A DNA stretch of 64,000 bases from a virus: the IMG/VR virus record IMGVR_UViG_3300047491_001507, one strand, 5' to 3'. Every line of letters begins with the position of its first letter. The stretch's first letter is position 1. Made by a program: the position numbers and the translations under genes. The notes beneath the pieces were generated by a model, which saw only the letters and a list, made by a program, of their open reading frames with translations, ran no database searches and was not told the DNA's origin. Positions 7,239 through 63,926 of the stretch are shown in pieces.

Positions 7239-7960
7239 AAATGAAAATCTTGATCACATCTGGCGGAACAAAAGTCCCAATCGATAAGGTTAGAGACATC
7301 ACAAACATGAGTCATGGAACCTTTGGCTCCAGAATTGCTTCTGTTGCATTGGAAGAAGGGCATGAAGTTTGTTTCTTGTGTGCCAAAGGATCTCGTACTC
7401 CATTCCGAAACGACTTCGATTTCTATAATAATAGCAAAGCAATCAATAAAGCAATGGAGTACTTTTTGTTTTGCGAAGAATATTGCGAACAATATTCCGA
7501 AACAGAATTTAGAAATTATGATGATTATGAAAAATTGCTTAGATTGCATTTAGATTGGAAGCCCGATGTGGTGATTTTGGCGGCTGCTGTAAGCGATTAT
7601 GGCGTTGCCAATTATGTGGATGGCAAAATCCGTACTCAAGATAATCTCCAAATTAATCTGGAACCGTTGCCTAAAATCATCGCTACAGTTAAGGAACGTC
7701 TTCCTGATTGTTTTTTGGTGGGATTTAAACTGTTGGTTTATGCTTCAGAGACAGAATTGATTGAGGAAGCTAACAAGAGCATCATGAATAATCGTTGCGA
7801 TTTGGTGGTTGCTAATGATTTAGCGTCACTTCAAGCCGACAATCATCGGTTATTTTTGGTTCGTCCTGATCAAGTTCCAGTGAGGTTTTGCAAGAATGAT
7901 GCACTGGAAGATCCTTACTATTTGGCACGCAAAGTGATTGAAGCAGCTACAGAAAGGTAA
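7235..7960 (+). CDS. coaB: phosphopantothenate-cysteine ligase (CoaB / PPCS)
   Basis: MKILITSGGTKVPIDKVRDITNMSHGTFG at the N-terminus and LVGFKLLVYASETE...CDLVVANDL, matching the CoaB nucleotide-binding and GFxAET motifs. Confidence 0.8.
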   Translation: MKMKILITSGGTKVPIDKVRDITNMSHGTFGSRIASVALEEGHEVCFLCAKGSRTPFRNDFDFYNNSKAINKAMEYFLFCEEYCEQYSETEFRNYDDYEKLLRLHLDWKPDVVILAAAVSDYGVANYVDGKIRTQDNLQINLEPLPKIIATVKERLPDCFLVGFKLLVYASETELIEEANKSIMNNRCDLVVANDLASLQADNHRLFLVRPDQVPVRFCKNDALEDPYYLARKVIEAATER

Positions 7961-7964
7961 CGAG

Positions 7965-8798
7965 ATGATAAATATTACGCCACAACGGGCCTTTCAATGT
8001 GCATTAAATCAAGGAAAGCGTTTTCCTGAAATGGAACCAGCTATCCTTGCCGATCCATATTGCGCTTATTGTTATGTTTTACATATTTTAAATAAACGTG
8101 TACGCAAAAAACCTAAACGTTGGGCAGAAGCAGAGAAGGTAATTATTGATGAAAAAAGAGCAGAATTGGCTTTCAATTATGCCAAAGAAATAATCCAAGG
8201 TCGTTGGGAAGAAGCAGAAGAGGTAATTGCTGCCAGCCCAAGATTTGCTTATTTATATGCTAATTATATAATTCAGGGACGTTGGCCTAAAGGTGAACTG
8301 GTAATTGCACAAAGTCCACATTATGCATATTGTTATGCAAAAGATGTGCTAAAATCTCGTTGGTCTGAAGCGGAGAAAACAATTGCAAAAGATCCAGAGT
8401 ATGCTTATAAGTACGCTTACTACGTAATTAAAGGTCGCTTTTCTGAAGCGGAGAAAACAATTGCAAAAGATCCAGAGTATGCTTATAAGTACGCTTGTGA
8501 CGTAGTTTGTGGCCGCTTTCCTGAAGCAGAAGCAACACTTGCAAAAAGCGATTATTATGCTTACAGATATGCTAGTGACGTAGTTCGTGGTCGTTGGGCT
8601 AAAGGCGAAAGAGCAATAATTACTGATCGAAATTGTGCCTGTTCATATGCTAAGGATGTGCTAAAATCCCGCTGGCGTAAAGCAGAGCCATTAATTGCTC
8701 AAAATCACTATCTCGCTTATGAATATGCAAGCCATTTTAAGTTAGAAATGTTTATTACTTTTAAATCCAAGAAACAAAAAAAAGGTGTCAAAAAATGA
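7965..8798 (+). CDS. 33-aa repeat family protein (YAxxYAxxVIKGRWPEGExAIA repeats)
   Basis: About seven tandem copies of the ~33-aa repeat; paralog of 25121.., 27273.., 32708.. and the - strand copies. Confidence 0.6.
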   Translation: MINITPQRAFQCALNQGKRFPEMEPAILADPYCAYCYVLHILNKRVRKKPKRWAEAEKVIIDEKRAELAFNYAKEIIQGRWEEAEEVIAASPRFAYLYANYIIQGRWPKGELVIAQSPHYAYCYAKDVLKSRWSEAEKTIAKDPEYAYKYAYYVIKGRFSEAEKTIAKDPEYAYKYACDVVCGRFPEAEATLAKSDYYAYRYASDVVRGRWAKGERAIITDRNCACSYAKDVLKSRWRKAEPLIAQNHYLAYEYASHFKLEMFITFKSKKQKKGVKK

Positions 8799-15178: not shown

Positions 15179-15615
15179 TGGCCGCTTGTCTTGAATGCGG
15201 AACAAATTTGCCCCCTTTGAGGACTAGTGTTTACCATTGTCAAAAGTGTGATGATAAATTTTGGAAAGAGGATGAAAGCATGACCAACAAAAGCATTGAA
15301 CTTCTAAAACAACACAAACAAAGAAAAAAAGAAGACTTAGAAAGACAAAAGGCAGCTTTAAAAGGAATTATAGATTTTCTTAAAGATGTTGCTGGATTGC
15401 GTATACATAAAGGAACGGTGAGAGATTTTTTCTCTATCGACACAGACAGAGTTACAATTTCTGTTGATAGCATTGCAAAGCCTTTAATTTTTTATAGCAC
15501 TTGGTCTTATCCAAATCACTATCAAATTACTAATGGAAAAGGAACAGTAACCGAAGAAGAAGCTATAAAACAAATTATGGATGTACTTTTGAAGCATCAT
15601 GTAGTAATCCCTTAG
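15178..15615 (+). CDS. hypothetical protein with N-terminal zinc ribbon, paralog of 14825..15178
   Basis: CLECG...CQKC, then the shared domain. Confidence 0.5.
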   Translation: MAACLECGTNLPPLRTSVYHCQKCDDKFWKEDESMTNKSIELLKQHKQRKKEDLERQKAALKGIIDFLKDVAGLRIHKGTVRDFFSIDTDRVTISVDSIAKPLIFYSTWSYPNHYQITNGKGTVTEEEAIKQIMDVLLKHHVVIP

Positions 15616-22159: not shown

Positions 22160-22474
22160 ATGAATCCAGTCCGTTCAATTCTTTATAATGGCAAAACTGT
22201 TTCTATTAGAGCCATTGAAGACAGCGAGAAATTCATCCAGAGCAGGATTCGGATTTTTGGCAAAAAAGACATTTGTCCATTATGCCGACAACATATTGAT
22301 TCTGGCGATATTACTTTGATAGTCTCCAATCAAGCAAACATTCCCAACAGGATTGCACACAATGCTTGTTTTGCAGATAAGACAGACGAATATGCTTTTC
22401 GTTTAATTGCCGAAGATTATCAGCGATTTCAACAATTTGAGAAGGATTACGAAGGTTGGATGGAGATGCATTGA
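22160..22474 (+). CDS. hypothetical zinc-finger protein
   Basis: ORF 22103.. trimmed to the ATG at 22160; CPLCRQH...HNAC. Confidence 0.45.
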   Translation: MNPVRSILYNGKTVSIRAIEDSEKFIQSRIRIFGKKDICPLCRQHIDSGDITLIVSNQANIPNRIAHNACFADKTDEYAFRLIAEDYQRFQQFEKDYEGWMEMH

Positions 22475-22899
22475 TGATTGTCAAAAAGACTGAGTGGCTT
22501 GAGTTGCGAGTGCGACATAAAAACCTGTATTTTATCAATAAAAAAAATACTCTTTTAATATGTTTCGGTGGCGTTGTAGCTTTTTTTGATCTTCCCAAGG
22601 ATGTTAAGAGAATCAGGTTTATTGTTTACAATAAGCCTACCAAGATTAGTCATGAAATATATCTGGGCAGAACACAGGTGTATTCAGGCGGAAATGATGG
22701 ATATATGATTACTTCTGCCAATTATGCTGTTGAAATAGACAAATATCTGTCTGATAAGACATTGCGACAATTAGGAGGCAAAAATTATCACATTGAATGT
22801 GAGTACGAATGTTATTCTGAGCGGGAATACGAAATTTTTCAGATTTTCTTTTTAAAGCTATTTAACTCGGTTTTTGAACATGATGCTAATTCAATTTGA
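22474..22899 (+). CDS. hypothetical protein, paralog of 23121..23573
   Basis: MIVKKTEWLELRV...FINKK matches MLIKKTDWLELRD..FINKK. Confidence 0.5.
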   Translation: MIVKKTEWLELRVRHKNLYFINKKNTLLICFGGVVAFFDLPKDVKRIRFIVYNKPTKISHEIYLGRTQVYSGGNDGYMITSANYAVEIDKYLSDKTLRQLGGKNYHIECEYECYSEREYEIFQIFFLKLFNSVFEHDANSI

Positions 22900-23131
22900 C
22901 GCAGATCCTCAACAGGTTTTATTGGGAAATTTACAAACAGGAATGCAAATAGTAGCAACTGTTAACGTGGAAAATATTATTGATGGAATTGCAATAAACG
23001 GAAGAGCATTTATGGCTTCTGCTCTTGGCGAGGAATTGTTGAAATTGCTGGCCAATAAAGGAAGCTTGGTCAATACCATTGATCCATCAATACATATTGC
23101 AAATATACGGGCACACAAAAATGTTAATTAA
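22874..23131 (+). CDS. hypothetical protein
   Basis: 85-aa ORF between the two paralogs. Confidence 0.4.
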   Translation: MNMMLIQFDADPQQVLLGNLQTGMQIVATVNVENIIDGIAINGRAFMASALGEELLKLLANKGSLVNTIDPSIHIANIRAHKNVN

Positions 23132-23573
23132 AAAAACTGACTGGCTTGAATTAAGAGATATAAATTTCATCAATAAAAAAGAAAATTTCTGGGTATGTGC
23201 TGACGGTCCCAGGAAAATATTTAGACTTCCAGAAAATACTAGAAAAATTAGATTTTACATCTATGATGAGCCTACTGCAAAAAGCACAAGAATTAAAATT
23301 GTTGAAAATATAAATTTGCGTTATTGGGAAATCGCTATTGGCAATATGCGTATTTCCGCAGATCATCATTTTATGTCCCAAGAAAGATTGCAAGAATTAG
23401 CTAAAAGACAAAGATTCTATTATGCCGAATGCGAATATCAATGTTTCACAAAACATGAATATGAAGTTTGGTTGTTAAAATCTAGAATTAAAGAACTTGA
23501 GGAAAAAAATCAAGATCTGAGAGATCAATGCTATTATTTAAGAGCACATTATGTGTGGAGTAAATCATGCTAA
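23121..23573 (+). CDS. hypothetical protein, paralog of 22474..22899
   Basis: Shared N-terminal motif and ECEY...EYE segment. Confidence 0.5.
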   Translation: MLIKKTDWLELRDINFINKKENFWVCADGPRKIFRLPENTRKIRFYIYDEPTAKSTRIKIVENINLRYWEIAIGNMRISADHHFMSQERLQELAKRQRFYYAECEYQCFTKHEYEVWLLKSRIKELEEKNQDLRDQCYYLRAHYVWSKSC

Positions 23574-24358: not shown

Positions 24359-24955
24359 ATGCATCACTTAGTATCAAAATTGTTCTGGGCTGTGGCTTCA
24401 TGTGATCGTGATCCCTATGAGGCGTTGGACTATTCTCATGATATCACTCTTGAGCCGACGACTGTGGGATCGATTCTGGAAACATTAAATGCTTATGATT
24501 TATCTTTGCATGGACTAATTAAGGTTGATCCTAAAGGCTTGAGCAAAGAAAGCATTGATGCATTGAAGGAAATGGGCTGGGTTCATCCTAGCACAGTTAA
24601 AAGCCGTAATGAACGTAAAGAATTAGAACAGCATTTTTGGCTTTTGGTTGCAAGTGGCAATTATGGTTCTTATCCGACATTTGAAAAGTTAGATTTAGAC
24701 AACATTTCTGATTATCAGATTGAAAAATTAGTAGAACGAAATGGAGATATTGTTCAAAAAGTGTCAGTAAAAAGTGTTTTGCCTGAAAAGGCATACAAGC
24801 GATATTTGGCTGCTAAAAAGAAGAAAGAGGAAAAGGATCTGAAGAAAAAATTGTCTGCGGAGAAAAAGAAAGCTGAGAAAAAAGCCAAGGAAGTAGCTCA
24901 AGCTAAACAGCTTTTAATTGAAGCAGGAGAATTGACACCGGAGGAAGAGTCATGA
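24359..24955 (+). CDS. hypothetical protein with Lys/Glu-rich C-terminus
   Basis: 198-aa ORF; KKKKEEKDLKKKLSAEKKKAEKKAKE tail. Confidence 0.5.
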   Translation: MHHLVSKLFWAVASCDRDPYEALDYSHDITLEPTTVGSILETLNAYDLSLHGLIKVDPKGLSKESIDALKEMGWVHPSTVKSRNERKELEQHFWLLVASGNYGSYPTFEKLDLDNISDYQIEKLVERNGDIVQKVSVKSVLPEKAYKRYLAAKKKKEEKDLKKKLSAEKKKAEKKAKEVAQAKQLLIEAGELTPEEES

Positions 24956-25119
24956 TGATCAGTGATATTATCGTCTTGTTAGTCGAAAGACTCGCTAACG
25001 ATGGTAATCAAGATGTTAAATTTTTGAGATTAGAAGACACAATAAGCGAAAATAATATTCCAAAGCGGGATATTATTTTTGAGTATGAGCCTAAAAAATT
25101 GACACCAAAGGGGAACTGA
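24952..25119 (+). CDS. small protein resembling the N-terminal module of repeat-family protein 46407..47009
   Basis: MMISDIIVLLVERLANDGNQDVKF matches MKISEVIALLVKRLAEDGDQDLGR; ATGA overlap upstream; immediately precedes repeat protein 25121.. Confidence 0.35.
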   Translation: MMISDIIVLLVERLANDGNQDVKFLRLEDTISENNIPKRDIIFEYEPKKLTPKGN

Positions 25120-25120: not shown

Positions 25121-26881
25121 ATGGAATTTACAAGTGCATCTGAAGCTCTTAAGTATGTGATGAAAAATGGAACAGGCGGTCGTGATGGAACTGACGCACT
25201 CAATGAAATTGCAACAAGTGCAGAATGTTCTTATCTTTGTGCTGCGAATGATTTTAAGGGACGTTTTCCTTTGGGAGAACCAGCAATTGCCACCGATGCA
25301 TATTATGCTTATATGTATGCCAATCATGTAATTAAAGGCAGATTTCCTGAAGCCGAAGCAACAATTGCTAAAAGTCCAATCTACGCTTTTTATTATACCA
25401 GAGATATAATTAAGCGTAGATTCCCTGAATGTGAAAAAGCAATGGTGTCTAATTCGTACTATTTAGGCCAGTATGTTGATTTTTTGGGATTGGATATTGC
25501 AATTGTGGAAAAACCAACAATGACTGCCAAGGATGTAATTAAGGGCAGATTTCGAGAGGAGGTAATTGCACAGGACGCACAATATGCTTATATGTATGCC
25601 AATGAAGTAATTCATGGTCGTTTTGCTGAAGGCGAAGCAGCAATTGCCACCGATGCACAATGTGCTTATATGTATGCCAATGAAGTAATAAAAGGGCGTT
25701 TTGCTGAAGGTGAAGCAGCAATTGCTCAAATTGCCAATTATTCTTATATGTATGCTAAAAATGTAATCAAAGCTCGTTGGCCTGAGGGCGAAAAAGCAAT
25801 TGCACAGCACGGATATCTTTCTTATTTGTATGCCAAGGATGTAATAAAAGGTAGATTTCCTGCTGGAGAACCGGCAATTCTTAAAGGTGATTCAGAATGG
25901 ATAAAAGGATATATAAAAACTTTCAAATTAAATCTTGTTAGTAGTTTTCTAGAAGATGATTGTTCTTTCGAGGAACAGCAGATTGTTGCAGAAAAACCAC
26001 GTTTCACAACTGCTGAAGAAGCTTATAGTTATGCTTTGAGTAAAAACCAGCCATCTCCTGAGTGTGAAGCGGTAATTGCTCAAGATGCCAAATGGTCGCA
26101 TTTGTATGCTTATGATATTATTCATGGACGATTTCCCGCTGGAGAACCAGTAATTGCTCAAAGTGCCAGTTATTCTTACGCATATGCAATAAATGTAATA
26201 AAAGGGCGTTTTGCTGAAGGTGAACCAGCAATTGCTAAAAATACTGATCATGCTTACAAATATGCCAAATATGTAATAAAAGGGCGTTGGCCAGAAGGCG
26301 AACCAGCTATTGCTAAAAATGTATTATGTTCCTTTGAATACGCTAGAGACGTAATTCATGATCGTTTTCCTGCTGGTGAACCAATCATTATGGGAAACCT
26401 CTGGTATTCTAGGGAATATCGAAACGTTTTCAAATTAAAGCTTGGTTTTCTAGAAGACGAACAGCAGATCCCAGCCGAAGCTTTTTCATCTCCTGAAAAA
26501 GCATATAGGCATGCTCGTGAAGTAGCTAAAGTACGTTGTCCGAAATTAGAGCCAATAATCAAAGAAGATGCGGAATGGGCTTACAAATACGCCAATGAAG
26601 TAATAAAAGGGCGTTTTGCTGAAGGCGAAGCAGCAATTGCCAAAAGTCCACTATATGCATGTTATTATGCTTGCGATGTACTCAATGGACCATTTCCAGC
26701 AGGAGAGCAGGCAATTCTTGGAAGTGTGGAATACATCTACAAATATGCCTTGAATGCACTAAAGGGGCGTTGGAGAAAAGCAGAGCCAATGATTGTTAAG
26801 GATCGTTATTTTGCACTAGGCTATGCTCGATTTTTCAATTTGGAAGTTACCACTGGTTTTACAGAGAAAGAATCGAAATGA
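25121..26881 (+). CDS. 33-aa repeat family protein (about 16 repeats)
   Basis: Iterated ...AIAxDAxYAYMYANEVIKGRFAEGE... units. Confidence 0.65.
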   Translation: MEFTSASEALKYVMKNGTGGRDGTDALNEIATSAECSYLCAANDFKGRFPLGEPAIATDAYYAYMYANHVIKGRFPEAEATIAKSPIYAFYYTRDIIKRRFPECEKAMVSNSYYLGQYVDFLGLDIAIVEKPTMTAKDVIKGRFREEVIAQDAQYAYMYANEVIHGRFAEGEAAIATDAQCAYMYANEVIKGRFAEGEAAIAQIANYSYMYAKNVIKARWPEGEKAIAQHGYLSYLYAKDVIKGRFPAGEPAILKGDSEWIKGYIKTFKLNLVSSFLEDDCSFEEQQIVAEKPRFTTAEEAYSYALSKNQPSPECEAVIAQDAKWSHLYAYDIIHGRFPAGEPVIAQSASYSYAYAINVIKGRFAEGEPAIAKNTDHAYKYAKYVIKGRWPEGEPAIAKNVLCSFEYARDVIHDRFPAGEPIIMGNLWYSREYRNVFKLKLGFLEDEQQIPAEAFSSPEKAYRHAREVAKVRCPKLEPIIKEDAEWAYKYANEVIKGRFAEGEAAIAKSPLYACYYACDVLNGPFPAGEQAILGSVEYIYKYALNALKGRWRKAEPMIVKDRYFALGYARFFNLEVTTGFTEKESK

Positions 26882-27270
26882 CACTGACACTGACGCCAGC
26901 AGAAGCTTTTAGGATTGCCAAATCTAGGATGCAACCTTGTCCAGAATTAGCAGATATTATCGCTACTGATGCCTACTTTTCTTATGAATATGCCGCAGAA
27001 GTTCTTGGTGAACGTTTTCCCAAGGGCGAACCGGCAATTGCTAAGACACAATATGCTTATGATTATGCTTGTGGAATAATCAAAGGAAGATTTCCTGAAG
27101 GCGAGGAGGCTATTTCCAGTGACGCATATCTTGCCTGTTATTACGCTTTAAACGCCCTTGGGGAAAGATTTTTGGCAGGAGAACCAACGATTATTCGCAA
27201 TCCTGAATTTGCTCAGATTTATGCAGATGCGTTTGGTTTGGAAATGATTTTTATTGAGAAAGGAAAATAA
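26878..27270 (+). CDS. 33-aa repeat family protein (short, ~3 repeats)
   Basis: ATGA overlap with 25121..26881; same repeat. Confidence 0.6.
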   Translation: MTLTLTPAEAFRIAKSRMQPCPELADIIATDAYFSYEYAAEVLGERFPKGEPAIAKTQYAYDYACGIIKGRFPEGEEAISSDAYLACYYALNALGERFLAGEPTIIRNPEFAQIYADAFGLEMIFIEKGK

Positions 27271-27272
27271 AC

Positions 27273-29504
27273 ATGAACGTGAATCCTGAAATAGTACGAA
27301 AAGCTTACAATTGTGCTGTGAGTTCTGACAATCGTTGTCCTGAATGGGAAGCAATCATTGCTACTGATGCATCTCACTCTTATAAATATGCTCTTAATCA
27401 TCTTGAAGGTCGTCGTTTTCTAGAAGGCGAAGCGGTAATTGCAAAAGACGCACAATGTGCCTTTTTTTATGCTAGAGATGTGATTGGTGGACGCTGGCCT
27501 GAAGCAGAAGAGGCAATTGCTACAGATGTACAATATGCCTTTTATTATGCTCGTAATGTGATTAAGGGTAGATTTCCAGAAGGCGAAAAGGCAATTGCCA
27601 CTGATGGTCATCTTGCTTTTTTATATGCTAAATTCACAGGAATGGATATTACTTTTGTTGAAAAACTTAAGTTTGCTAATCCAGCAGATGCTTATCGTTA
27701 TGCTTTCAATCATCCAGATAAGCGTTATCCTGAAGCGGAAGAGGTAATAGTAACAAATGCATATGTATCATATCTTTATGTCTGCAATGTTCTGAAAAGG
27801 CGTTGGGCAGAAGGTGAAGCGGTAATTGCAAAAAACGCACAAAATGCCTTTTTTTATGCTAGAGATGTGATTGGCGGACGCTGGCCTGAAGCAGAAGAGG
27901 CAATTGCTACAGATGCAAAATACGCCTGTTTGTATGCTATGGATGTAATTAAAGGGCGTTTTGCTGAAGGCGAACCAGCTATTGCTCAGAGTGCAGATTG
28001 GGCTTGGCTTTATGCTAAGAGCGTAATTAAGAGAAGATTTCCTGAAGCAGAAAAAGCAATTGCTCAGGTTAAATCTATTAATAGGGAATATTGTGATAAA
28101 TTCCCGTTGAAATTTGATAGTCCATCAAGTGCTTATCGTTATGCTATTGCCCACCCAAAGCAATGTTGTCCTGAAGTAGAAGATAAAATAGCAGAAAATG
28201 CCTACATGTCATATCTTTATGCTCTTCATGTTTTAAAATCTCGATTTCTTAAGGGAGAGAAAGCAATTGCTCAAGCAGCACCAACTGCTTATATTTATGC
28301 CAAAGACATTATTAAAGGTAGGTTTCCTGAGGCAGAACCTGCTATTGCTAAAGATGCATATTATGCATTTCTTTATGCTTTGCAGATAATTAAAGGACGT
28401 TGGCCCGAAGCAGAGCCAACAATTATCAAAAATGCGGAATGGGCTTATCGTTATGCCGAAAAAATAATAAAGGCACGTTGGCCTGAGGCAGAAGCAGTAA
28501 TTGCTAAAAGCTCACCTTGGGCTTATAATTATGCCGTAGATATGATTAAGGATCGTTGGCCTGAGGCAGAATCTACGATCCTAGCATCAGCAGATGCATC
28601 CAAATATGCCAATAACTTTAAATTAACAATTACGCTGGAAAAACCGAAATTTACAACGCCAGTAGAAGCTTATGGCTATGCTAGAGATATAGTGAAAGGT
28701 CGTTGTCCTGAAGCAGAGCCGATGATTGCTCAGGATGCACAGTTTGCTGCTCTTTATGCCAAGAGCATAATTCAGGGTCGTTGGCCTGAAGGCGAAAAGG
28801 TGATTGCTCAGGATGCACATTGGGCTTGTTTTTATGCTATAAATGTAATCAAAGCTCGTTGGCCTGAGGGCGAAAAAGCAATTGCTCAGGATGCACATTA
28901 TGCTTATAGATATATTAAATATGTGATAAAAGATCGTTGGCCTGAAGCAGAGCCGATGATTGCTCAGGATGCATATTACGCTTGTTTTTATGCTATGAAT
29001 ACAATCAAAAGCCGTTGGCCTGAAGGTGAAGAGGCAATTGCTACAGATTCGTATCTTTACAAGAAATATTGCAAGGAATTTTCAATAGCAGAAGGTTATA
29101 ACCCGAAATTAATGACTCCAGTAGAAGCTTATAGTTACGCTAAAGATGTGTTAAAAGGTCGTTGTTCCGAATGCGAAGCAACAATTATTCAAAGTCCAAT
29201 TTTTGCATATCGTTATGCTCAAGATGTGTTAAAAGGTCGCTGGATTGAGGCAGAACCAGTAATCGCTACTGATCCTGGCATTGCATATCTCTATGCAGAC
29301 AAGATAATTAGAGGAAGATTTCCTGAGGCAGAAGTAGAAATTTCACGATCTGTATTTGCCTCCAAATATGCTGCTCTTTTTGGATTGGAATTTGCTGGTT
29401 TTAAACCAGAATTGACAAAAAGTAAAGAATCTGTTACTTTGGATGAAATTCTGACAAGACTTGAAAATTTGGAATCAAAATTGCACAATATGTTTTTATG
29501 CTAA
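27273..29504 (+). CDS. 33-aa repeat family protein (about 20 repeats) with C-terminal coiled coil
   Basis: Iterated VIKGRWPEAEExIA units over 743 aa. Confidence 0.65.
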   Translation: MNVNPEIVRKAYNCAVSSDNRCPEWEAIIATDASHSYKYALNHLEGRRFLEGEAVIAKDAQCAFFYARDVIGGRWPEAEEAIATDVQYAFYYARNVIKGRFPEGEKAIATDGHLAFLYAKFTGMDITFVEKLKFANPADAYRYAFNHPDKRYPEAEEVIVTNAYVSYLYVCNVLKRRWAEGEAVIAKNAQNAFFYARDVIGGRWPEAEEAIATDAKYACLYAMDVIKGRFAEGEPAIAQSADWAWLYAKSVIKRRFPEAEKAIAQVKSINREYCDKFPLKFDSPSSAYRYAIAHPKQCCPEVEDKIAENAYMSYLYALHVLKSRFLKGEKAIAQAAPTAYIYAKDIIKGRFPEAEPAIAKDAYYAFLYALQIIKGRWPEAEPTIIKNAEWAYRYAEKIIKARWPEAEAVIAKSSPWAYNYAVDMIKDRWPEAESTILASADASKYANNFKLTITLEKPKFTTPVEAYGYARDIVKGRCPEAEPMIAQDAQFAALYAKSIIQGRWPEGEKVIAQDAHWACFYAINVIKARWPEGEKAIAQDAHYAYRYIKYVIKDRWPEAEPMIAQDAYYACFYAMNTIKSRWPEGEEAIATDSYLYKKYCKEFSIAEGYNPKLMTPVEAYSYAKDVLKGRCSECEATIIQSPIFAYRYAQDVLKGRWIEAEPVIATDPGIAYLYADKIIRGRFPEAEVEISRSVFASKYAALFGLEFAGFKPELTKSKESVTLDEILTRLENLESKLHNMFLC

Positions 29505-31049: not shown

Positions 31050-31217
31050 ATGTGTTTATTTCATAAATGGGATAATAATGATTGTCGCTGGCCTAGTTTA
31101 AGCGTATCACTTGAACCAGAAAATAAAGAAAGAACCTGCTTGAAATGTGGCGAAAAACAGGAATGGATACAATATCCTCTGCATATCGGTTTTATGACTG
31201 ATCAGCCTTGGGGTGTT
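31050..31217 (+). CDS. zinc-ribbon-like N-terminal portion of the 160-codon ORF 31050..31532 (no stop before the tRNA-like element)
   Basis: CRWPS...CLKCGEKQEW; the reading frame continues through the tRNA-like sequence, so the gene boundaries are uncertain. Confidence 0.3.
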
Positions 31218-31233
31218 TGGAGAAGAAAAATAA

Positions 31234-31308
31234 GCCAGTGTAGCTCAAATGGAAGAGTCTCGTGTCATTGTGGCATGGGAGATGTTGGTTCGAATCCAAC
31301 CACTGGCT
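31234..31308 (+). tRNA. tRNA-like element (possible degenerate tRNA or tRNA remnant); anticodon arm non-canonical
   Basis: Exact 7-bp acceptor GCCAGTG/CACTGGC, D-arm TAGCTCAAATGGAAGAGT and T-arm GTTGG-TTCGAAT-CCAAC at correct tRNA spacing (75 nt), but the middle 25 nt fold into an 8-bp hairpin with a 5-nt loop. Confidence 0.45.
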
Positions 31309-31319
31309 TGGAGGAAAAA

Positions 31320-31532
31320 ATGAAAAAATTTGATTCAAAAGAGGAATTAGACTTATTTTTGAGATCTAAACATCGTCCTTATGATGTTGATACCCATTGG
31401 CAAATGGAAGATATGGAATATCAGTTTCCCATTTGGACAGAATTTTTAGGGACCACCCATCTGGGGGCTGCATTCAAAGTAAGAAATCGTGAACAAATGT
31501 TGGCTCTTAAACAAATTTTTATGGATTTATAA
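31320..31532 (+). CDS. hypothetical protein (C-terminal portion of ORF 31050..31532, or an independent gene)
   Basis: ATG at 31320 preceded by GGAGGAAAAAA; in frame with the upstream ORF. Confidence 0.4.
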   Translation: MKKFDSKEELDLFLRSKHRPYDVDTHWQMEDMEYQFPIWTEFLGTTHLGAAFKVRNREQMLALKQIFMDL

Positions 31533-32512: not shown

Positions 32513-32694
32513 TGTCCAAAGAAAAGAAATGGTTGGAATACGCCCATCTTCATCCTGTAGAATGGAAATCCTACTTAGGTAGCTGTAATTGTTATGTTTG
32601 TGTGAAATATCGAGCAGATTTTGAACAGTGGCTAAAAAAACAAGACATTTCTCAAATTAATTCCATGAAATGGAAGGGAAATCGTGTCATCTAA
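32509..32694 (+). CDS. hypothetical small Cys-containing protein
   Basis: 61-aa ORF; ATGA overlap. Confidence 0.45.
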   Translation: MMSKEKKWLEYAHLHPVEWKSYLGSCNCYVCVKYRADFEQWLKKQDISQINSMKWKGNRVI

Positions 32695-32707
32695 AGGAGT
32701 TGAAGTC

Positions 32708-34048
32708 ATGAAATTTAAATCACTACAAGAAGCTTATAATCATGTTCTTGTTTATGGGCCTTCTCCTGAAGCAGAATCTGTCATTGCTACAAATTCAGCA
32801 TGGTCTTATGTTTATGCTCGTGATATAATTAAAGGCAGATTCCCTTTGGGCGAGGCAGCGATTGCCACAGATACAATCAGATCTTATGAATACGCTCTCA
32901 ATGTGCTTAAAGGTAGATTTCCTGAAGGCGAGAAAATAATTGCCACAAATCCACGGTGGTCATATGAATATGCTCTCAATGTGATTAAAGGCAGATTTCC
33001 TGAAGGCGAACCGGAAATTGCTGCAAGTAGTGTTTATGCTTGGCTTTATTCTAGAAGTGTTGGCTTGCTCAAACCGGAATTGAAATTTATGAAACCAGCA
33101 GAAGCTTACGATCATGCTAAAGATGTGGTAAAAGGTCGTTGTCCTGAAGCAGAAGTAGAAATTATTAAAAGTGCAGAATATTCTTATTATTATGCAACAA
33201 ATGTTTTGAAGTCTCGCTTTCCTGAAGGCGAAGCAACAATTGCTCAGGATGCACAATGGTCTTATCATTATGCTCTTTATGTTTTGAATGGGCGATTTCC
33301 GTTGGGCGAAGCAGTAATTATTCAAGATCCATTTTATGCATGTTACTATGCAGTAAATGTTATGAAAGATCGTTGGCCTGAAGCAGAGGCGACGATTTCA
33401 AGGTCTACTAACCTTGTCAGTAAATATGCAGATCAGTTTAAATTGGCGGTGACACTTGCTGACACACCGTTGAAATTTGCAACAATAAAAGAAGCTTATA
33501 GTTATGCTCAGAATCATCCAAGAGAACATTGTCCTGAAGCAGAAAAGATGATCGCTCAAGATGCTTCAACTTCTTATTTGTATGCTAGATATGTGATTAG
33601 AAAGCGTTTTCCAGAAGGCGAAGTAACAATTGCAAGAAACCCCTCTTCTGCTTATTATTATGCCAACGAAGTGATTGGTGGACGTTGGCCTGAATGTGAA
33701 GCAGAACTTGCTAAAAATGTACAATATGCTTATCTTTATGTTGTAAATATAATCAAGGGTCGTTGGTTTGAAGCTGAAGCAGCGATTGTTCAAAACCCAG
33801 AATATGCTTGCCTATATGCGATAAATGTTCTAAAGGCTCGTTGGCCTGAAGCAGAAGAAGGAATTTTGAAACATTCTGATCCTGTTCATGCTTATAAATA
33901 TGCTGAACATTTTAAATTGACATTCTCTAGTTTCATGCCGAAACCGAAATCCGAATTGACACTAAGTTCTGCAATTGATAAAATTGACACCATAGAAAAA
34001 CAAATAGCAAGTTTGGAAAAAAGACTTTCTAATTTGGAAGAACAATAA
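32708..34048 (+). CDS. 33-aa repeat family protein with C-terminal coiled coil
   Basis: AAGGAG SD before the ATG at 32708 (the track start at 32684 is a GTG); iterated VIKGRFPEGE units. Confidence 0.65.
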   Translation: MKFKSLQEAYNHVLVYGPSPEAESVIATNSAWSYVYARDIIKGRFPLGEAAIATDTIRSYEYALNVLKGRFPEGEKIIATNPRWSYEYALNVIKGRFPEGEPEIAASSVYAWLYSRSVGLLKPELKFMKPAEAYDHAKDVVKGRCPEAEVEIIKSAEYSYYYATNVLKSRFPEGEATIAQDAQWSYHYALYVLNGRFPLGEAVIIQDPFYACYYAVNVMKDRWPEAEATISRSTNLVSKYADQFKLAVTLADTPLKFATIKEAYSYAQNHPREHCPEAEKMIAQDASTSYLYARYVIRKRFPEGEVTIARNPSSAYYYANEVIGGRWPECEAELAKNVQYAYLYVVNIIKGRWFEAEAAIVQNPEYACLYAINVLKARWPEAEEGILKHSDPVHAYKYAEHFKLTFSSFMPKPKSELTLSSAIDKIDTIEKQIASLEKRLSNLEEQ

Positions 34049-37031: not shown

Positions 37032-37326
37032 CACACAATTTCTGGATTTAATTAAAAAACTTGCTTTGCAATATGATTCGTTAGGGCCTTCCTTCCCAGA
37101 AGGTCTTTGTTTTTATGAGTTTGTATGTAACGTTCTAGATTTTCCGCCAGAAGATTTGCAAAACACACATAAAGAAGTTTATGATAGATTTCGTGATGTG
37201 TCAAAAGTTGTCGGAATATCTCCAGAGGAAATAAACGAACAACAGGAAAAACAGGAAAAACGTAGACGTTTATACGAACAATTTAAACAAGATTTTAAAT
37301 TAATGTTGCAGGAGCATCAAAAATGA
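37021..37326 (+). CDS. hypothetical protein, paralog of 36387..36713
   Basis: Shared QYDxL...FYxFVC motif. Confidence 0.5.
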   Translation: MMTNTQFLDLIKKLALQYDSLGPSFPEGLCFYEFVCNVLDFPPEDLQNTHKEVYDRFRDVSKVVGISPEEINEQQEKQEKRRRLYEQFKQDFKLMLQEHQK

Positions 37327-37823
37327 ATTGGAGAATTGGAAGCATTTCTGATAAATGCCATGAAGCATTTTTGGAATTGGTAGAAGTTCTTAAAAATTGG
37401 AAACCTCCTAAAGAAGAGCCCGTTCAAGAAATGAACGCAGGGCTTGAGCTTTTAAAGGAAAGCATGGAAGAAAGACAGCGAAATAAAGAAAGTACAGAAA
37501 GGGTTTTAGCTGGAATTTTTGAATTTATTAAACAGGTGGGAGATGTAACCATATATTCCAAGATGGCAGTACACCCCATGGCAACAAAGCCTGATACAGG
37601 AAAGAAATTCAAGCATTGTGTTACTTATGATCCAGATACAGCCACTATCTCTTTAAATGATGGATACTATAGCTTGCAATTTTGCGGCATGACTTTTAAT
37701 GATGGAAATACTTATATTACTCGATACCGTGTTAAAATAACAGAAAAACAAGCCATTGAAGCAATTATTGATTGGCTTATTGAACGAAAGGCTCAACTCC
37801 CTAAAGTAAAGGAAAATGTATGA
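37323..37823 (+). CDS. hypothetical protein
   Basis: 166-aa ORF; ATGA overlap. Confidence 0.5.
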   Translation: MNWRIGSISDKCHEAFLELVEVLKNWKPPKEEPVQEMNAGLELLKESMEERQRNKESTERVLAGIFEFIKQVGDVTIYSKMAVHPMATKPDTGKKFKHCVTYDPDTATISLNDGYYSLQFCGMTFNDGNTYITRYRVKITEKQAIEAIIDWLIERKAQLPKVKENV

Positions 37824-39706: not shown

Positions 39707-39735
39707 TCGCCGTTCCTTGGAGCGGCGATTGTTAT
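39707..39735. terminator. possible bidirectional terminator at the convergent strand switch
   Basis: TCGCCG-ttccttggag-CGGCGA hairpin flanked by T-runs on both strands, between the last + gene and the first - gene. Confidence 0.35.
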
Positions 39736-42019: not shown

Positions 42020-42035
42020 ATGTAATATATAGAGT

Positions 42036-44685: not shown

Positions 44686-44700
44686 TATTCCGCTCTCTTT

Positions 44701-46186: not shown

Positions 46187-46384
46187 TTAATTCCTTTCCT
46201 TAAACTTTCTAATAATATCTAAGTTGAATATATCAGCATAATTTTGTGAAGGTATTGAATCCGAAAGAATCGTTGCTTCAGCTTCAAGCCAACGTCTTTT
46301 AAGTGTGTTTTTAGCATACAGATAAGCATAAGTTGGACTTGAAGCAATTATCGCTTCACCTTCAGGAAATCTGCCAAACAACAC
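46187..46384 (-). CDS. 33-aa repeat family, short or truncated copy
   Basis: Two repeats plus the family C-terminal ADIFNLDIIRKFKERN motif, downstream of the full-length copy. Confidence 0.45.
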   Translation of the reverse strand: MLFGRFPEGEAIIASSPTYAYLYAKNTLKRRWLEAEATILSDSIPSQNYADIFNLDIIRKFKERN

Positions 46385-46406: not shown

Positions 46407-47009
46407 TCATGTTGTTATTCTTTCCGCAAACTTCCTGATAACATCCAAGTTAAATTGCTTGGCGTAACAACGAGTACAATCATCACTTGTAAAAATTACC
46501 TTTTCTGCTTCAGGCCAACGTGCTTTAATTATTTCTTTGGCATATCTGACGGCACAATGTGGATCTTTCGCAATTGCCGCTTCGCCTTCAGGAAATCGAT
46601 CTTTTATTATCTTAATCGCATATTCACAAGCATAATATGCACTGGTGGCAATTACTGCTTCGCACTTAGGCAAACGTTCTTGAACTACTTCTTTGACGTA
46701 ATTATAACACCATTCTGGATTTTTTAGGATTGCTGGTTCGCCTGTGAGCCAACGTCCTCGCACAATATTCTTGGCATAAAAAAAAGCATATTGCGGATTT
46801 TTCGCAATAAGCTCTTCTGCTTCAATAATTTCACGAAAATGAGTGCCATTTTTGATTATGTAATTATAAGCCTCATATGCCGTTGCAAATTCAATTCTAC
46901 TGACACCGAGTATATCACCGAGTATATTATCGAACTGCCGACCCAGATCCTGATCTCCATCTTCAGCAAGCCTCTTAACCAGAAGAGCAATCACTTCGCT
47001 AATTTTCAT
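46407..47009 (-). CDS. 33-aa repeat family protein with N-terminal ISEVIALLVKRLAEDGD module
   Basis: 200-aa ORF with 4-5 repeats. Confidence 0.6.
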   Translation of the reverse strand: MKISEVIALLVKRLAEDGDQDLGRQFDNILGDILGVSRIEFATAYEAYNYIIKNGTHFREIIEAEELIAKNPQYAFFYAKNIVRGRWLTGEPAILKNPEWCYNYVKEVVQERLPKCEAVIATSAYYACEYAIKIIKDRFPEGEAAIAKDPHCAVRYAKEIIKARWPEAEKVIFTSDDCTRCYAKQFNLDVIRKFAERITT

Positions 47010-48351: not shown

Positions 48352-48640
48352 AATTTAATCCTTGCTGTCCAAAATAATAAGTTCTTCCATGATGACTTTT
48401 CTCGTTTATTACAATCTTGTATGTTCTGGCGTAAGGATGAAGAGCAATGGCTTCTTTGTAAAATGATATAAGATCTTTTTGAACAGAATCATACACAACA
48501 GCATAATTACATAAATAAGCGGTTACTGTTGCTCTTAAAAGCGTTGCTTCTTCTAAGACCTTTGCCTGCGTAAACTTGACTGGTAGTAACAAAGATGCCA
48601 AACCGCCCAACACTGTTTTCAGAAGATTTCTACGATTCAT
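48329..48640 (-). CDS. putative Tat-secreted protein (paralog of 50354..50833)
   Basis: MNRRNLLKTVLGGLASLLLPVKFTQA is a twin-arginine signal; ORF trimmed to this Met. Confidence 0.55.
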   Translation of the reverse strand: MNRRNLLKTVLGGLASLLLPVKFTQAKVLEEATLLRATVTAYLCNYAVVYDSVQKDLISFYKEAIALHPYARTYKIVINEKSHHGRTYYFGQQGLNCENSRTI

Positions 48641-48881
48641 TTGATTTTTTTCTTTCTGAAAATTTGATGTTGATATCCAGATTGAATTCTTCAGCATAAA
48701 GACCGGCATACATGTAAGGAAGCAATAATTCGCCTTCAGGCCAACGATCTTTGATTACATGTCTGGCATACATGTATATCCATCCTCTGTCCTCTAGAAT
48801 CATCTTTTCTGCTTCCGCACAACGTCCATACTTGTAAGCATAATCATAGGCTTCCATTGCTGTTTCAAATTTTTTTGTCAT
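48630..48881 (-). CDS. 33-aa repeat family, short copy
   Basis: 83 aa with ~1.5 repeats plus the EEFNLDINIKFSERK C-terminal motif. Confidence 0.5.
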   Translation of the reverse strand: MTKKFETAMEAYDYAYKYGRCAEAEKMILEDRGWIYMYARHVIKDRWPEGELLLPYMYAGLYAEEFNLDINIKFSERKKSNES

Positions 48882-49104
48882 TACTTAATATTCTTTCTAC
48901 GGTACATTTTTGACAAATCAAGCCACGAGGTTTTCCACCAGTTAAATGGCGGATTCTCAACTTGCCTTCCTTGATCGGCTTATCTTTGGTATACCAGCCA
49001 GGAAGAGGTTCGTTTGTTGTCGTCACTTGTCCGACAAATGTTGCTTGTCCTTCAATTTTTTCTTTACAGATCAGACAAATTTCACTTACTTGTGTAACAG
49101 CCAT
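48865..49104 (-). CDS. zinc-ribbon protein (possibly a degenerate HNH-like finger)
   Basis: CLICKEK...RHLTGGKP...LICQKC. Confidence 0.45.
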   Translation of the reverse strand: MAVTQVSEICLICKEKIEGQATFVGQVTTTNEPLPGWYTKDKPIKEGKLRIRHLTGGKPRGLICQKCTVERILSNDKKI

Positions 49105-49217
49105 TGATTATTTTTTCTGCTCTTAGAAAACGACTTAGAAAACGAGCATCAAGAACATTTATAGCATACTCACAAGCATGTCTTGCATTAGTCGCAATAA
49201 CTGCTTCCCAGCAAGAG
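49105..49217 (-). pseudogene. degraded fragment of a 33-aa repeat family gene, interrupted by an inverted-repeat element
   Basis: The reverse strand translates to ...CWEAVIATNARHACEYAINVLDARFLSRFLRAEKI* with no start codon. Confidence 0.35.
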
Positions 49218-49323
49218 AATTGTATCACGAGGGAGATTTCGTTACAACTGCATCCGACAGAGGTTTCCCCGTGTACTTAGGGGGCGTGACGGCGTTCCCT
49301 AATATCTCCCTCGTGATACAATT
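49218..49323. mobile_element. MITE-like inverted-repeat element (20-bp perfect terminal inverted repeats around a 66-bp GC-rich core)
   Basis: AATTGTATCACGAGGGAGAT ... ATCTCCCTCGTGATACAATT; the core is ~58% GC in an AT-rich context and sits at the break point of the degraded repeat gene. Confidence 0.5.
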
Positions 49324-49570: not shown

Positions 49571-49850
49571 CGGATTGCCTCAATTCTGACAGTAATTGTT
49601 TGCCGCTTTCGGTTAATTTCCAGTGACATGCCCATTTGTCGTTTCTAGGATCAGGAAATTGTTCAATGAAACCATGTTTTTCTGCTTCTGTTAATTGATG
49701 TTCCTGCATGGCAAAAGCATCAATTTGGTCTTGTTCACAGAACCATACATCGTAACTGCCACGATAAATGTCTTTGCGTCCGCTACTTTTTCCTTCTAAG
49801 GATTCAATTTTTTCTAAAACCCAATACATCCAATAAAATTCAGAAGTCAT
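49554..49850 (-). CDS. hypothetical protein
   Basis: 98-aa ORF. Confidence 0.5.
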   Translation of the reverse strand: MTSEFYWMYWVLEKIESLEGKSSGRKDIYRGSYDVWFCEQDQIDAFAMQEHQLTEAEKHGFIEQFPDPRNDKWACHWKLTESGKQLLSELRQSDGKMS

Positions 49851-50353
49851 TTACTGACCCAACCCCTTAAAAGATCTACTTCTATACGAAGAGAATTTAT
49901 ATCCATAATAAGTTCCTTGGTTTTTTCATGAACCTCATTACGAATATTATTTATTTGAGTGTTTAAATCTCTATGTAATAAGAGAGTGTATCTGGCAACA
50001 AAATTAAATTGTCCATGTTTGAGAATTGCCTCCTCCCCTTCTGGCCAACGTCCTTTTATTACTTCTATTGCGTATAGACAAGAATAATCTGGATGAGTGG
50101 CAATTACTGCCTCGCCTTCAGGGAATCGGCCTTTAAGTATTTTTTTTGCATAATAATAAGCAAGCACAACATTTTGAGCAATCGCTGCTTCGCCTTCAGG
50201 GAATCGGCCTTTAAGTATTTCACCTGCATATCGAAAGGAGTATTCTGGATCAGTGGCAATTTTGGACTCAAGTTCGGGACAACATCCCTTAACTTCATTT
50301 AAAACGTATATGTAAGCTTCTTTTGCTGTTTCAAATTCAGGTACTTCGCTCAT
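49847..50353 (-). CDS. 33-aa repeat family protein with C-terminal coiled coil
   Basis: 3 repeats, then a DLNTQINNIRNEVHEK coiled coil. Confidence 0.6.
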   Translation of the reverse strand: MSEVPEFETAKEAYIYVLNEVKGCCPELESKIATDPEYSFRYAGEILKGRFPEGEAAIAQNVVLAYYYAKKILKGRFPEGEAVIATHPDYSCLYAIEVIKGRWPEGEEAILKHGQFNFVARYTLLLHRDLNTQINNIRNEVHEKTKELIMDINSLRIEVDLLRGWVSK

Positions 50354-50833: not shown

Positions 50834-50835
50834 TT

Positions 50836-51390
50836 TTACCCCCATCTAACATGAACATTGTCACGAAGATAATTAATTTCTTCATGAATTCTCTCTATAT
50901 CATTTTGAAAATCGTTCATTTGATCACATAAAATCCGCAGCAAAAACAACGAATATTTAGCAGCTAAATCTGGTTCCGTATTAATTGCTGCTTCGCCTTC
51001 AGGAAAACGTCTCTTTGTAATTTCGGTCGCATATGCATAACTCTTCCCTGCATCTTTAGCAATTGCGTTTTCGCCTTCTGGGAAGTGTCCTCTCATTATT
51101 TCTATAGCATAACAGTAAGCATACCAAGCATCTTGGCCAATTGCATATTCGCCTTCATAATATCTGCCTTTAATTATGTCAACGGCATACCAATAAGCAT
51201 ATTGTGGGTCTTTAGCAATTGCCTTTTCGCCCTTAGGAAATCTACCTTTAAGTATATTCTTGGCATACTCATAAGCACTTTTAGCATCTCTAGCAATTTT
51301 TGACTCAAGTTCAGGACAACGTCCCTTGACTTCATATAAAACGTGTGTGTAAGCTTCCCATGCTGTTTTAAATTGAGACGATTTAGTCAT
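50836..51390 (-). CDS. 33-aa repeat family protein
   Basis: 4 repeats plus a C-terminal coiled coil; near-duplicate arrangement of 49847..50353. Confidence 0.6.
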   Translation of the reverse strand: MTKSSQFKTAWEAYTHVLYEVKGRCPELESKIARDAKSAYEYAKNILKGRFPKGEKAIAKDPQYAYWYAVDIIKGRYYEGEYAIGQDAWYAYCYAIEIMRGHFPEGENAIAKDAGKSYAYATEITKRRFPEGEAAINTEPDLAAKYSLFLLRILCDQMNDFQNDIERIHEEINYLRDNVHVRWG

Positions 51391-63356: not shown

Positions 63357-63926
63357 TCAAAATCCCTCCTGATTAGCAAACATCACAGCCCAATGCCAAC
63401 CATTTTCAGTAGGCTCATATCGAGCAACAGGCGATCCCTCTTCCCCAAAATGAGGCTTAATTCTGGTATATGGCTCCTGAGGTGCAACATCATTACTAAA
63501 AACCATAATCTTGCTGCCTCTCGGACAATTTGGAAACAAAACCCAAAAGGCTGTAAAATAATGCCCTTTATATACCTTCAAAACCTCAAATACCTCTTCG
63601 TTATGCTCAATCATCTGTTCGTGACCCATAACAAGCTTTCCTTTAATTTTTAAAAAATTCATGTACATACGATAATAGAAAAAATTGCCCCGCATAATTG
63701 CTGGCTCTCCAAATGGAAATCGTGCCTTAAGCACATTAATGGCATACCAGCAAGAATATTGGTCATTCTGTGCAATTACCTTTTCGCCTTCATACCAACG
63801 ACCTTTAATTATATCCTTGGCATAATAATACGAAAGCCTTGCATCTTGAGCAATTTTCTCCTCTCCATCTAACCAACGACCTTTAACTACGTCTTTTGCA
63901 TGGAAATAAGCCTCTTCTGGAGTCAT
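63357..63926 (-). CDS. 33-aa repeat family protein (2-3 repeats) fused to an unrelated C-terminal domain
   Basis: MTPEEAYFHAKDVVKGRWLDGEEKIAQDARLSYYYAKDIIKGRWYEGEKVIAQ. Confidence 0.55.
   Translation of the reverse strand: MTPEEAYFHAKDVVKGRWLDGEEKIAQDARLSYYYAKDIIKGRWYEGEKVIAQNDQYSCWYAINVLKARFPFGEPAIMRGNFFYYRMYMNFLKIKGKLVMGHEQMIEHNEEVFEVLKVYKGHYFTAFWVLFPNCPRGSKIMVFSNDVAPQEPYTRIKPHFGEEGSPVARYEPTENGWHWAVMFANQEGF

What the first reader, a model, noticed from the sequence alone, without database searches (positions are those of the whole stretch)
25121..29504. Massively expanded ~33-aa repeat protein family
At least 12 genes are built from a ~33-residue unit of the form ...A(I/K)xDAxYAYxYAxxVIKGRWPE(G/A)ExAIA.... 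They are 7965..8798, 24952/25121..26881, 26878..27270, 27273..29504, 32708..34048, 46187..46384, 46407..47009, 48630..48881, 49847..50353, 50836..51390, 63357..63926 and a degraded copy at 49105..49217. Sizes range from 1.5 to about 20 repeats, with 743 aa in the largest. Together they make up roughly 15% of the window. Members differ in their N- and C-terminal modules, which include coiled coils and a conserved FNLD..KF tail. Truncated, split and degraded copies coexist, so the family is actively turning over. The periodicity and conserved aromatic/Gly/Pro positions suggest an alpha-solenoid, in the manner of TPR, Sel1 or HEAT repeats, used for protein-protein interaction. I cannot assign it to a named repeat class.
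Basis: seen in the sequence. Interest (0 to 1): 0.75.

Follow-up and report, generated by a model that had tools for sequence, protein, structure and literature searches.

The report
Phage 26-residue helical repeat family
About 15% of this stretch of a large, uncultured phage genome encodes a previously undescribed family of proteins built from a 26-residue two-helix repeat with a rigid framework and one highly variable face, which most likely serve as a set of custom binding proteins.

Summary
The repeat family is real. A unit HMM gives 71 significant in-frame hits, against 0 in shuffled controls. All hits lie inside 12 ORFs that cover 15.0% of the window. The period is 26 residues (78 nt), not about 33.

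Units are organised into modules: an N-cap, 3-8 units and a C-cap. The large proteins are 3-5 modules joined end to end. AlphaFold2 models a module with pLDDT 97.7 as an alpha-solenoid, each unit being a 12-residue helix plus a 7-residue helix.

The family has about 6,700 clusters at 50% identity, almost all from metagenomic large-phage contigs, and often sits in tandem gene arrays. Elsewhere the array is usually fused to a conserved N-terminal domain, and occasionally to an AAA+ ATPase.

Framework positions are under purifying selection (dN/dS 0.29). Five positions on one face of the long helix are hypervariable and aromatic-rich, with no recurring "code".

Best reading: a phage-specific binding scaffold expanded into a repertoire for protein targets. 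The targets are unknown.

The parts
7938..8798 (+). Family member, 286 aa (ATG at 7965 gives 277 aa). One long module with about 8 units; basic (pI 9.3).
   Evidence: Unit HMM hits 8052-8732; architecture; pI.
24952..25119 (+). 55-aa ORF homologous to the N-terminal leader of the 46407-47009 member. It is separated from the 25121 gene by a TGA stop and a 1-nt frame offset, so this is probably a split gene.
   Evidence: BLASTP 14/22 identical, E 5e-8; sequence of the junction.
25121..26881 (+). Family member, 586 aa, four modules (13 or more units).
26878..27270 (+). Family member, 130 aa, a single module (N-cap + 3 units + C-cap). Its start overlaps the upstream stop (ATGA).
27273..29504 (+). 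Largest member, 743 aa: five modules (19 full units plus caps) and a heptad-like C-terminal tail. AAGGA lies upstream of the ATG.
   Evidence: The module at 28647-29105 was modelled at pLDDT 97.7.
32684..34048 (+). Family member, 454 aa (ATG at 32708 gives 446 aa): three modules plus a heptad-like C-terminal tail.
46187..46384 (-). Truncated copy, 65 aa (GTG start): about 1.5 units plus a C-cap ending FNLDIIRKFKERN. It lies directly downstream of the 46407 member.
46407..47009 (-). Family member, 200 aa: 39-aa leader plus one module (4 units), with tail FNLDVIRKFAERITT.
48630..48881 (-). Minimal member, 83 aa: N-cap + 1 unit + C-cap.
49082..49228 (-). Degraded single unit in a 48-aa GTG ORF; probably a remnant.
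   Evidence: Weak HMM hit at 49139-49198, iE 5.5e-4; translation.
49847..50353 (-). Family member, 168 aa: N-cap + 3 units + a heptad-like tail of about 60 aa.
50836..51390 (-). Family member, 184 aa: N-cap + 4 units + a heptad-like tail.
63357..63926 (-). Family member, 189 aa: 3 units followed by an unrelated C-terminal domain of about 110 aa (phrog_13501, unknown function).

Best explanation
These genes encode a previously uncharacterised class of alpha-solenoid repeat protein that is essentially restricted to large phages. Each 26-residue unit folds into a 12-residue helix, a KGR(W/F) turn, a 7-residue helix (PExExAI) and a short turn. Units stack into capped modules of 3-8 units, and modules are strung together like beads or split into separate, translationally coupled genes. 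The framework residues are kept constant (I1, A8, Y11, A12, V/I15-16, R19, W/F20, P21, E22, E24). Five positions that lie on one face of the long helix (helix positions 2, 3, 6, 9, 10) are hypervariable and rich in Tyr/Trp. Stacked along the solenoid, these form a continuous variable surface. The most likely function is therefore that of a binding scaffold: each paralogue or module recognises a different protein or peptide target, probably host or competing-phage proteins. The multigene expansion gives the phage a germline repertoire of binders. Where the array is fused to another domain, it acts as that domain's targeting part. Shown here: the repeat, its period, the module architecture, the solenoid model, the selection pattern, the virus-restricted distribution, the fusions and the tandem arrays. 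Inferred: that the variable face is a binding site, that the targets are proteins, and that the setting is phage-host conflict.
Against: No binding partner, expression data or experimental result exists for any member. I could not read the model coordinates, so the placement of the variable positions on a single exposed surface rests on helical periodicity, not on measured solvent exposure. dS between window units is saturated (about 1.2), so the 0.92 value is only a bound. In L031 the framework also gives dN/dS > 1 (1.35) with very low dS. Gene conversion or unit shuffling could distort both values, and pairwise comparisons are not independent. The window's own members lack any effector domain, so the 'targeting module' logic is borrowed from homologues. 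The neighbouring genes are uninformative ORFans.
Confidence: 0.55

Rival explanations
1. The proteins are virion-associated: structural, decoration or packaged/ejected proteins. The solenoid would act as a spacer, scaffold or surface adhesin rather than an intracellular binder.
For: The N-terminal 'WC' domain that most homologues carry is the N-domain of PA5oct gp205 (E 3e-62 to my profile). That protein is annotated 'structural protein, ESI-MS/MS' and lies next to a terminase-like gene. A variable surface would also suit an adhesin.
Against: The window's members lack the WC domain. PA5oct gp205 has no 26-aa units. The same MS-based 'structural' label in PA5oct is given to a protein that, by my inspection of its N-terminal sequence only, resembles the ssDNA-binding protein gp32, so the label may be loose. 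Family genes in the window and on long contigs sit among small ORFans and metabolic genes, not in morphogenesis modules. No signal peptide or membrane segment is visible in the translations.
Confidence: 0.15
2. The arrays are modular nucleic-acid binders in the manner of PUF, PPR or TALE repeats, with one unit reading one base through the variable residues.
Against: There is no small recurrent code: 62 of 64 triplets are distinct in the window and 673 of 909 in homologues. Proteins are near-neutral or acidic (pI 4.6-6.6) with net charge about 0 per unit. PUF, PPR and TALE units are 34-36 aa with different helix counts. There is no sequence match to any such Pfam family.
Confidence: 0.07
3. It is an ordinary, very divergent offshoot of a known short helical repeat (HEAT-like/PBS-lyase, LRV or DUF4116-type) with a generic scaffolding role and nothing special about the variable face.
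Confidence: 0.12
4. The ORFs are non-functional: a selfish or slippage-generated 78-nt DNA repeat that happens to stay open.
For: Truncated and degraded copies exist at 46187-46384 and 49082-49228, and there is a split gene at 24952/25121. Antisense ORFs also stay open across the repeat.
Against: Framework dN/dS is 0.29 with saturated dS. Copies are only 60-84% identical in DNA yet keep the protein framework. All 77 hits are in one frame of real ORFs. The fold prediction is highly confident. There are thousands of diverged homologues.
Confidence: 0.02

Closest known systems
PHROG family phrog_28193 (unknown function)
   Same: The only library family that matches significantly (E 3e-20 for the 743-aa protein). 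Its profile covers the WC N-domain (about positions 117-218) followed by the same repeats.
   Different: It is an automatic cluster with no described function, structure or repeat definition. The window's members match only its repeat part and lack the N-domain.
HEAT and HEAT-like repeats (e.g. PP2A A subunit, symplekin)
   Different: HEAT units are about 37-47 aa, against 26 here. There is no sequence or profile match. The second helix here has only 7 residues. Rmsd is about 4 A at 2-8% identity.
Leucine-rich repeat variant (LRV, 24-residue alpha/3-10 solenoid; my knowledge of PDB 1LRV)
   Same: A very short helical repeat of similar period that forms a right-handed superhelix. Phage proteins with this annotation appear in the BFVD list.
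   Different: Those BFVD matches are not significant (E about 1, TM 0.3-0.4). There is no Pfam LRV hit. The consensus sequence and helix lengths differ.
Designed helical repeat proteins and DARPin-type binder libraries
   Different: Those are man-made. Here the diversity is encoded as natural paralogues in phage genomes.
Lineage-specific repeat-protein multigene families of large viruses (e.g. ankyrin families of giant viruses; my knowledge)
   Same: Large tandem paralogue arrays of a repeat protein in a big viral genome, with variable surfaces and truncated copies.
   Different: A different repeat class and a different host domain (bacteriophage). No F-box or other recognisable adaptor domain is attached in the window.
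EccA-type AAA+ ATPases with an N-terminal TPR domain (my knowledge of the architecture)
   Same: P0105 and P0111 place the 26-aa array N-terminal to a SpoVK/EccA/CbbX-class AAA+ module (TIGR03922 E 2e-72), the position of the substrate-binding TPR domain in EccA.
   Different: The repeat is not TPR. This architecture is rare in the family and absent from the window.

Membership tests
TPR / Sel1 / HEAT / PBS-lyase HEAT-like / LRV (Pfam repeat families) | Significant match to the family's profile HMM | tested here: not met
   hmmscan of four proteins against Pfam-A at E <= 1 lists none of these for the repeat proteins. The only TPR entry is TPR_22 at E 0.17 for the neighbouring non-repeat ORF 24359-24955. 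A profile search against PDB sequences finds nothing.
TPR / Sel1 / HEAT / ankyrin | Characteristic unit length (34, about 36-44, about 37-47 and 33 aa respectively; my knowledge) | tested here: not met
   The unit is 26 aa or 78 nt.
Alpha-solenoid fold class (structural class, not a homologous family) | Tandem helix-turn-helix units stacking into an elongated superhelix | tested here: met
Pfam PF05798 Phage_FRD3 (T4 frd.3) | Homology over the 75-aa family profile, above the gathering score | tested here: not met
   27.6 and 24.6 bits against a cutoff of 28.1, with no individually significant stretch. T4 frd.3 itself shares only the 12-aa motif YIEEIIRNRYPE with the unit, scoring 2-9 bits.
Pfam PF13693 HTH_35 (winged helix-turn-helix) | A winged-HTH domain matched over most of the 75-position profile | tested here: not met
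   The summed score of 37.3 bits exceeds the whole-protein cutoff, but there are 0 significant stretches and the best one covers only profile positions 33-49. The model is a solenoid with no beta-wing. This artefact explains the PF13693 tags and the JGI name 'lambda repressor-like regulator' on homologues.
PHROG phrog_28193 | Significant match to the PHROG profile | tested here: met
   E 3e-20 (743-aa protein), 1.6e-11 (586-aa protein) and 1e-5 to 3e-4 for five smaller members, over the repeat part of the profile only.
PUF / PPR / TALE modular nucleic-acid binders | A small recurrent set of specificity residues (a code) at fixed positions, and family-specific unit length | tested here: not met
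   62 of 64 and 673 of 909 triplets are distinct. The unit is 26 aa and the proteins are near-neutral or acidic. No Pfam match.
PUF / PPR / TALE modular nucleic-acid binders | Sequence-specific RNA or DNA binding | not testable with these tools
   Requires EMSA, SELEX or CLIP.
Known anti-phage defence proteins (PADLOC) | Match to a defence-system protein model | tested here: not met
   No hit for any repeat protein. Only the AAA+ part of P0105 weakly hits IetA/DolB/TRIP13 models.
'WC' N-domain + array architecture (PA5oct gp205-like N-domain) | Presence of the ~230-aa N-domain with the invariant W-C motif | tested here: not met
   A profile of 99 N-domains finds nothing in the six-frame window (best E 0.35). 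The rest of this phage genome is not available.

The most novel reading that the evidence does not exclude
Large phages carry a germline-encoded, antibody-like repertoire. Dozens of paralogous 26-residue-repeat solenoids share one framework, and their hypervariable, tyrosine-rich faces are diversified by duplication, unit shuffling and positive selection. Each would neutralise or hijack a different host protein, for example variants of defence-system sensors. The modules are used free, concatenated for multivalency, or fused to effector domains.
Probability: 0.3. Interest if true: 0.85.

Novelty: new variant of a known kind. Interest (0 to 1): 0.62.

Why it matters
Alpha-solenoid binders are a familiar idea, but this class appears undescribed. 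It has a 26-residue unit and its own cap and module grammar. It has no Pfam or NCBIfam entry, no solved structure and no mention in the searchable literature. It is nevertheless common, with about 6,700 clusters at 50% identity, and it recurs as large tandem gene arrays in phages of 85-480 kb.

If the variable face is a binding site, these arrays are a natural analogue of designed repeat-protein libraries. They would point to a large, unexplored layer of phage-host protein targeting. They could also supply very small, stable, well-predicted scaffolds for binder engineering.

There is a practical gain as well. The 'HTH_35 / transcriptional regulator' and 'Phage_FRD3' tags on many database homologues are artefacts and should be replaced.

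Tried and rejected
- **Phage_FRD3.** I fetched T4 frd.3 and found only a 12-residue motif in common, so I rejected it.
- **HTH_35.** Rejected as a summed-repeat artefact. My comparison with E. coli YdiL found nothing, but RefSeq labels YdiL DUF1870, so it may not be a valid exemplar and I do not rely on it.
- **AFDB Foldseek.** The library was unavailable.
- **tblastn against GenBank phages.** The 743-aa protein and a very regular 442-aa array gave no match. BLAST's low-complexity filter may contribute. A single-module query found only SCTP-2 gp435, which has 2 units.
- **The search for related loci.** The protein query found no relative, and the call with the module alignment (A1) was rejected with an error. 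A back-translated motif search worked instead.
- **Exact-sequence look-up of the 743-aa protein.** Not on record.
- **P0006 N-terminus.** It looked like a PARP-type ADP-ribosyltransferase by eye but has no Pfam, NCBIfam or PADLOC support, so I make no claim.
- **Literature.** Motif strings, family accessions and the Iyer et al. 2021 jumbo-phage survey give no description of this repeat.
Full report
**Observation**

The flagged ORFs translate into obvious tandem repeats. Anchoring on the G-R-(W/F)-x-E-x-E motif gave start-to-start spacings of 26 residues, not about 33.

I built a 26-position HMM from 15 seed units and searched the six-frame translation of the window. It gave 77 hits, 71 with iE <= 1e-3. 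Ten codon-shuffled windows gave none at that threshold. Every hit lies in the coding frame of one of twelve ORFs on the stated strands.

The twelve loci are 7938-8798, 25121-26881, 26878-27270, 27273-29504, 32684-34048, 46187-46384, 46407-47009, 48630-48881, 49082-49228, 49847-50353, 50836-51390 and 63357-63926. Together with the 24952-25119 leader ORF they cover 9,608 bp, or 15.0% of the window. At the DNA level the period is 78 nt and copies are 60-84% identical.

**Anatomy**

Above the unit there is a module:
- an N-cap, K-F-x-T-P-x-E-A-Y-x-Y-A...G-R-C-P-E-x-E;
- 3-8 units with consensus I-A-x-D-A/P-x-x-A-Y-x-Y-A-x-x-V-I-K-G-R-W/F-P-E-G/A-E-x-A;
- a C-cap, ...K-Y-A-x-x-F-x-L....

The 743-aa protein has five modules plus a heptad-like tail. 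The 586-aa protein has four modules. The 454-aa protein has three modules plus a tail. The others have one module with various tails. One of them (63357-63926) carries an unrelated C-terminal domain that matches phrog_13501.

The three genes at 25121-29504 are coupled by an ATGA overlap and by a 2-nt gap preceded by AAGGA. The 55-aa ORF at 24952 matches the leader of the 46407 member, so 24952/25121 is a split gene.

**Structure**

AlphaFold2 on the module at 28647-29105, using an alignment of the window's 18 modules, gave pLDDT 97.7 and pTM 0.89. Each unit is a 12-residue helix, a 4-residue turn, a 7-residue helix and a 3-residue turn.

**Known families**

Pfam gave only sub-threshold or summed hits to Phage_FRD3 and HTH_35, with no individually significant stretch. 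T4 frd.3 shares just a 12-residue motif with the unit. NCBIfam, PADLOC and PDB sequence and profile searches gave nothing for the repeat.

The one real match is phrog_28193, of unknown function. Its profile combines an N-terminal domain with these repeats. Literature searches for the motif, the accessions and jumbo-phage expansions found no description.

**Distribution**

A word-indexed search found more than 430 relatives, all named hypothetical apart from two spurious source names, with a best identity of 45-49%. A full profile search found 6,682 clusters at 50% identity with E <= 1e-3, of which 1,384 had E <= 1e-30. These include giants such as P0121, which is 2,253 aa with about 15 modules.

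A back-translated IKGRWPEAE pattern hit 62 IMG/VR loci, on contigs of up to 478 kb. Among 185,579 species-representative genomes it hit only 8 stretches, all in MAGs.

Multigene arrays recur in other phages. One 85-kb viral contig has six loci. One of these (L031) holds 12 consecutive genes, each with a fixed 56-aa flank, 4-6 units and a 20-aa tail. A 250-kb contig has five consecutive genes with the N-domain plus array architecture.

The window itself looks like part of a large phage. It has three tRNAs, Thg1-like, radical-SAM, carbamoyltransferase and HD genes, many ORFans and strand-blocked genes. It has no close relative in GenBank phages.

**Fusions**

In 111 of 120 homologues another domain flanks the array. 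99 of the 109 N-terminal flanks of at least 150 aa form one family of about 230 aa with an invariant W-C motif. This domain is absent from the window.

The same domain is the N-terminus of PA5oct gp205, which was detected in virions by MS. It also occurs in SCTP-2 gp34, gp37, gp40 and gp435. Its AF2 model has pLDDT 87 and no significant structural neighbour.

P0105 and P0111 fuse the array to a SpoVK/EccA/CbbX-type AAA+ ATPase.

**Selection**

Entropy per unit position separates two groups. The framework is nearly invariant (Y11 96-99%, A12, R19, W/F20, P21, E24). Five positions are hypervariable (6, 7, 10, 13 and 14 of the unit, which are positions 2, 3, 6, 9 and 10 of the long helix). Their spacing places them on one helical face.

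Nei-Gojobori estimates over window units give dN/dS 0.29 for the framework and 0.92 for the variable face, with dS saturated. In the younger L031 array the variable face gives 1.88.

The variable face is 26% aromatic with balanced charge. 62 of 64 triplets are distinct, and the proteins have pI 4.6-6.6, apart from one basic member. Unit pairs in the window are mostly old: the median best identity is 72%, and one pair reaches 95%.

**Interpretation**

Taken together, the evidence supports a new short-period alpha-solenoid class that acts as a binding scaffold with a diversified surface and has been expanded into a repertoire in large phages. This is shown for fold, selection and distribution. 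It is inferred for binding and for the nature of the targets.

The rivals are less well supported, for the reasons given in their entries:
- a virion-associated role;
- a modular nucleic-acid code;
- a divergent member of a known repeat class;
- non-functional repeat DNA.

The class is best rated as a new variant of a known kind. The most interesting reading that remains open is a germline binder library used in phage-host conflict.

Noticed in passing
window 48329-48709 (-) and 50354-50845 (-): Two paralogues (42% identity) share a nearly identical twin-arginine-type signal peptide, MNRRNLLKTVLGGLASLLLP(V/I)KF(T/A)QA. Each lies immediately downstream of a repeat-family gene, which suggests a duplicated two-gene cassette and a possible exported partner.
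   Followed up: partly
window 24952-25119 (+) with 25121-26881 (+): The 55-aa ORF matches the leader of the 46407-47009 protein (14/22 identical). It is separated from the repeat gene by a TGA stop plus one base. This could be a split gene, a frameshift or a recoding site.
   Followed up: partly
window 31233-31309 (+) inside ORF 31050-31532 (+): tRNA-Gln(TTG) lies inside a 160-aa ORF that has no PHROG hit, so the ORF is probably spurious. tRNA-Arg(TCT) and tRNA-Lys(TTT) lie at 326-479.
   Followed up: no
window 39732-48351 (mostly - strand) and 5365-6225 (+): A cluster of modification-type enzymes: a Nol-like carbamoyltransferase, two HD-domain proteins (one elsewhere, at 683-1654), three radical-SAM proteins and a Thg1-like tRNA-His guanylyltransferase homologue. 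This may be a nucleotide or tRNA modification pathway.
   Followed up: no
window 10022-11131 (+): A 369-aa protein combining a flavoprotein domain (PF02441, E 2.5e-30) with a sub-threshold M23 peptidase match. This is an unusual fusion.
   Followed up: no
window ~39.5-44 kb: Genes switch from the + strand to the - strand near 39.5 kb, and GC skew changes sign near 43 kb (cumulative skew maximum). This marks a convergent transcription boundary or a replication-related switch.
   Followed up: no
window, several places (e.g. 14825-15615 with 37323-37823; 22474-23573; 58405-59134; 60185-60741): At least 13 other small paralogue groups occur in the window, so gene duplication is a general habit of this genome and not confined to the repeat family.
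   Followed up: no
window 25463-25810, 25949-26251, 27420-27611, 28623-28898, 32960-33325 (- strand): Antisense ORFs of 60-120 aa stay open across the repeat, and most of them cluster as a 'family' in all-vs-all BLAST. They are mirror artefacts of the 78-nt repeat, not genes.
   Followed up: yes
L020, L022, L024, L025, L031, L038 (IMGVR_UViG_3300035181_001867, 85 kb): This viral contig holds dozens of head-to-tail single-module genes. Their 56-aa flanks and 20-aa tails are almost identical, unit numbers vary and start/stop codons overlap by 4 nt. It is a more extreme and younger expansion than the one in the window.
   Followed up: partly
L064 (Salicola phage SCTP-2 genes 34, 37, 40): The WC N-domain is fused there to a different short helical repeat (about 23 aa, IDNPTE.VQLAAV...), so different solenoid types appear interchangeable behind this domain.
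   Followed up: no
L066, L068, L069, L070 (Promethearchaeota MAG RBin_111, four contigs): Four contigs of one Asgard-archaeal MAG carry the repeat motif. They are probably mis-binned phage contigs, but an archaeal virus is not excluded.
   Followed up: no
Homologues P0009-P0118: Many database homologues carry precomputed PF13693 (HTH_35) or PF05798 tags, and one carries the JGI name 'lambda repressor-like predicted transcriptional regulator'. These come from summed matches of a short motif across repeats and are misannotations.
   Followed up: yes
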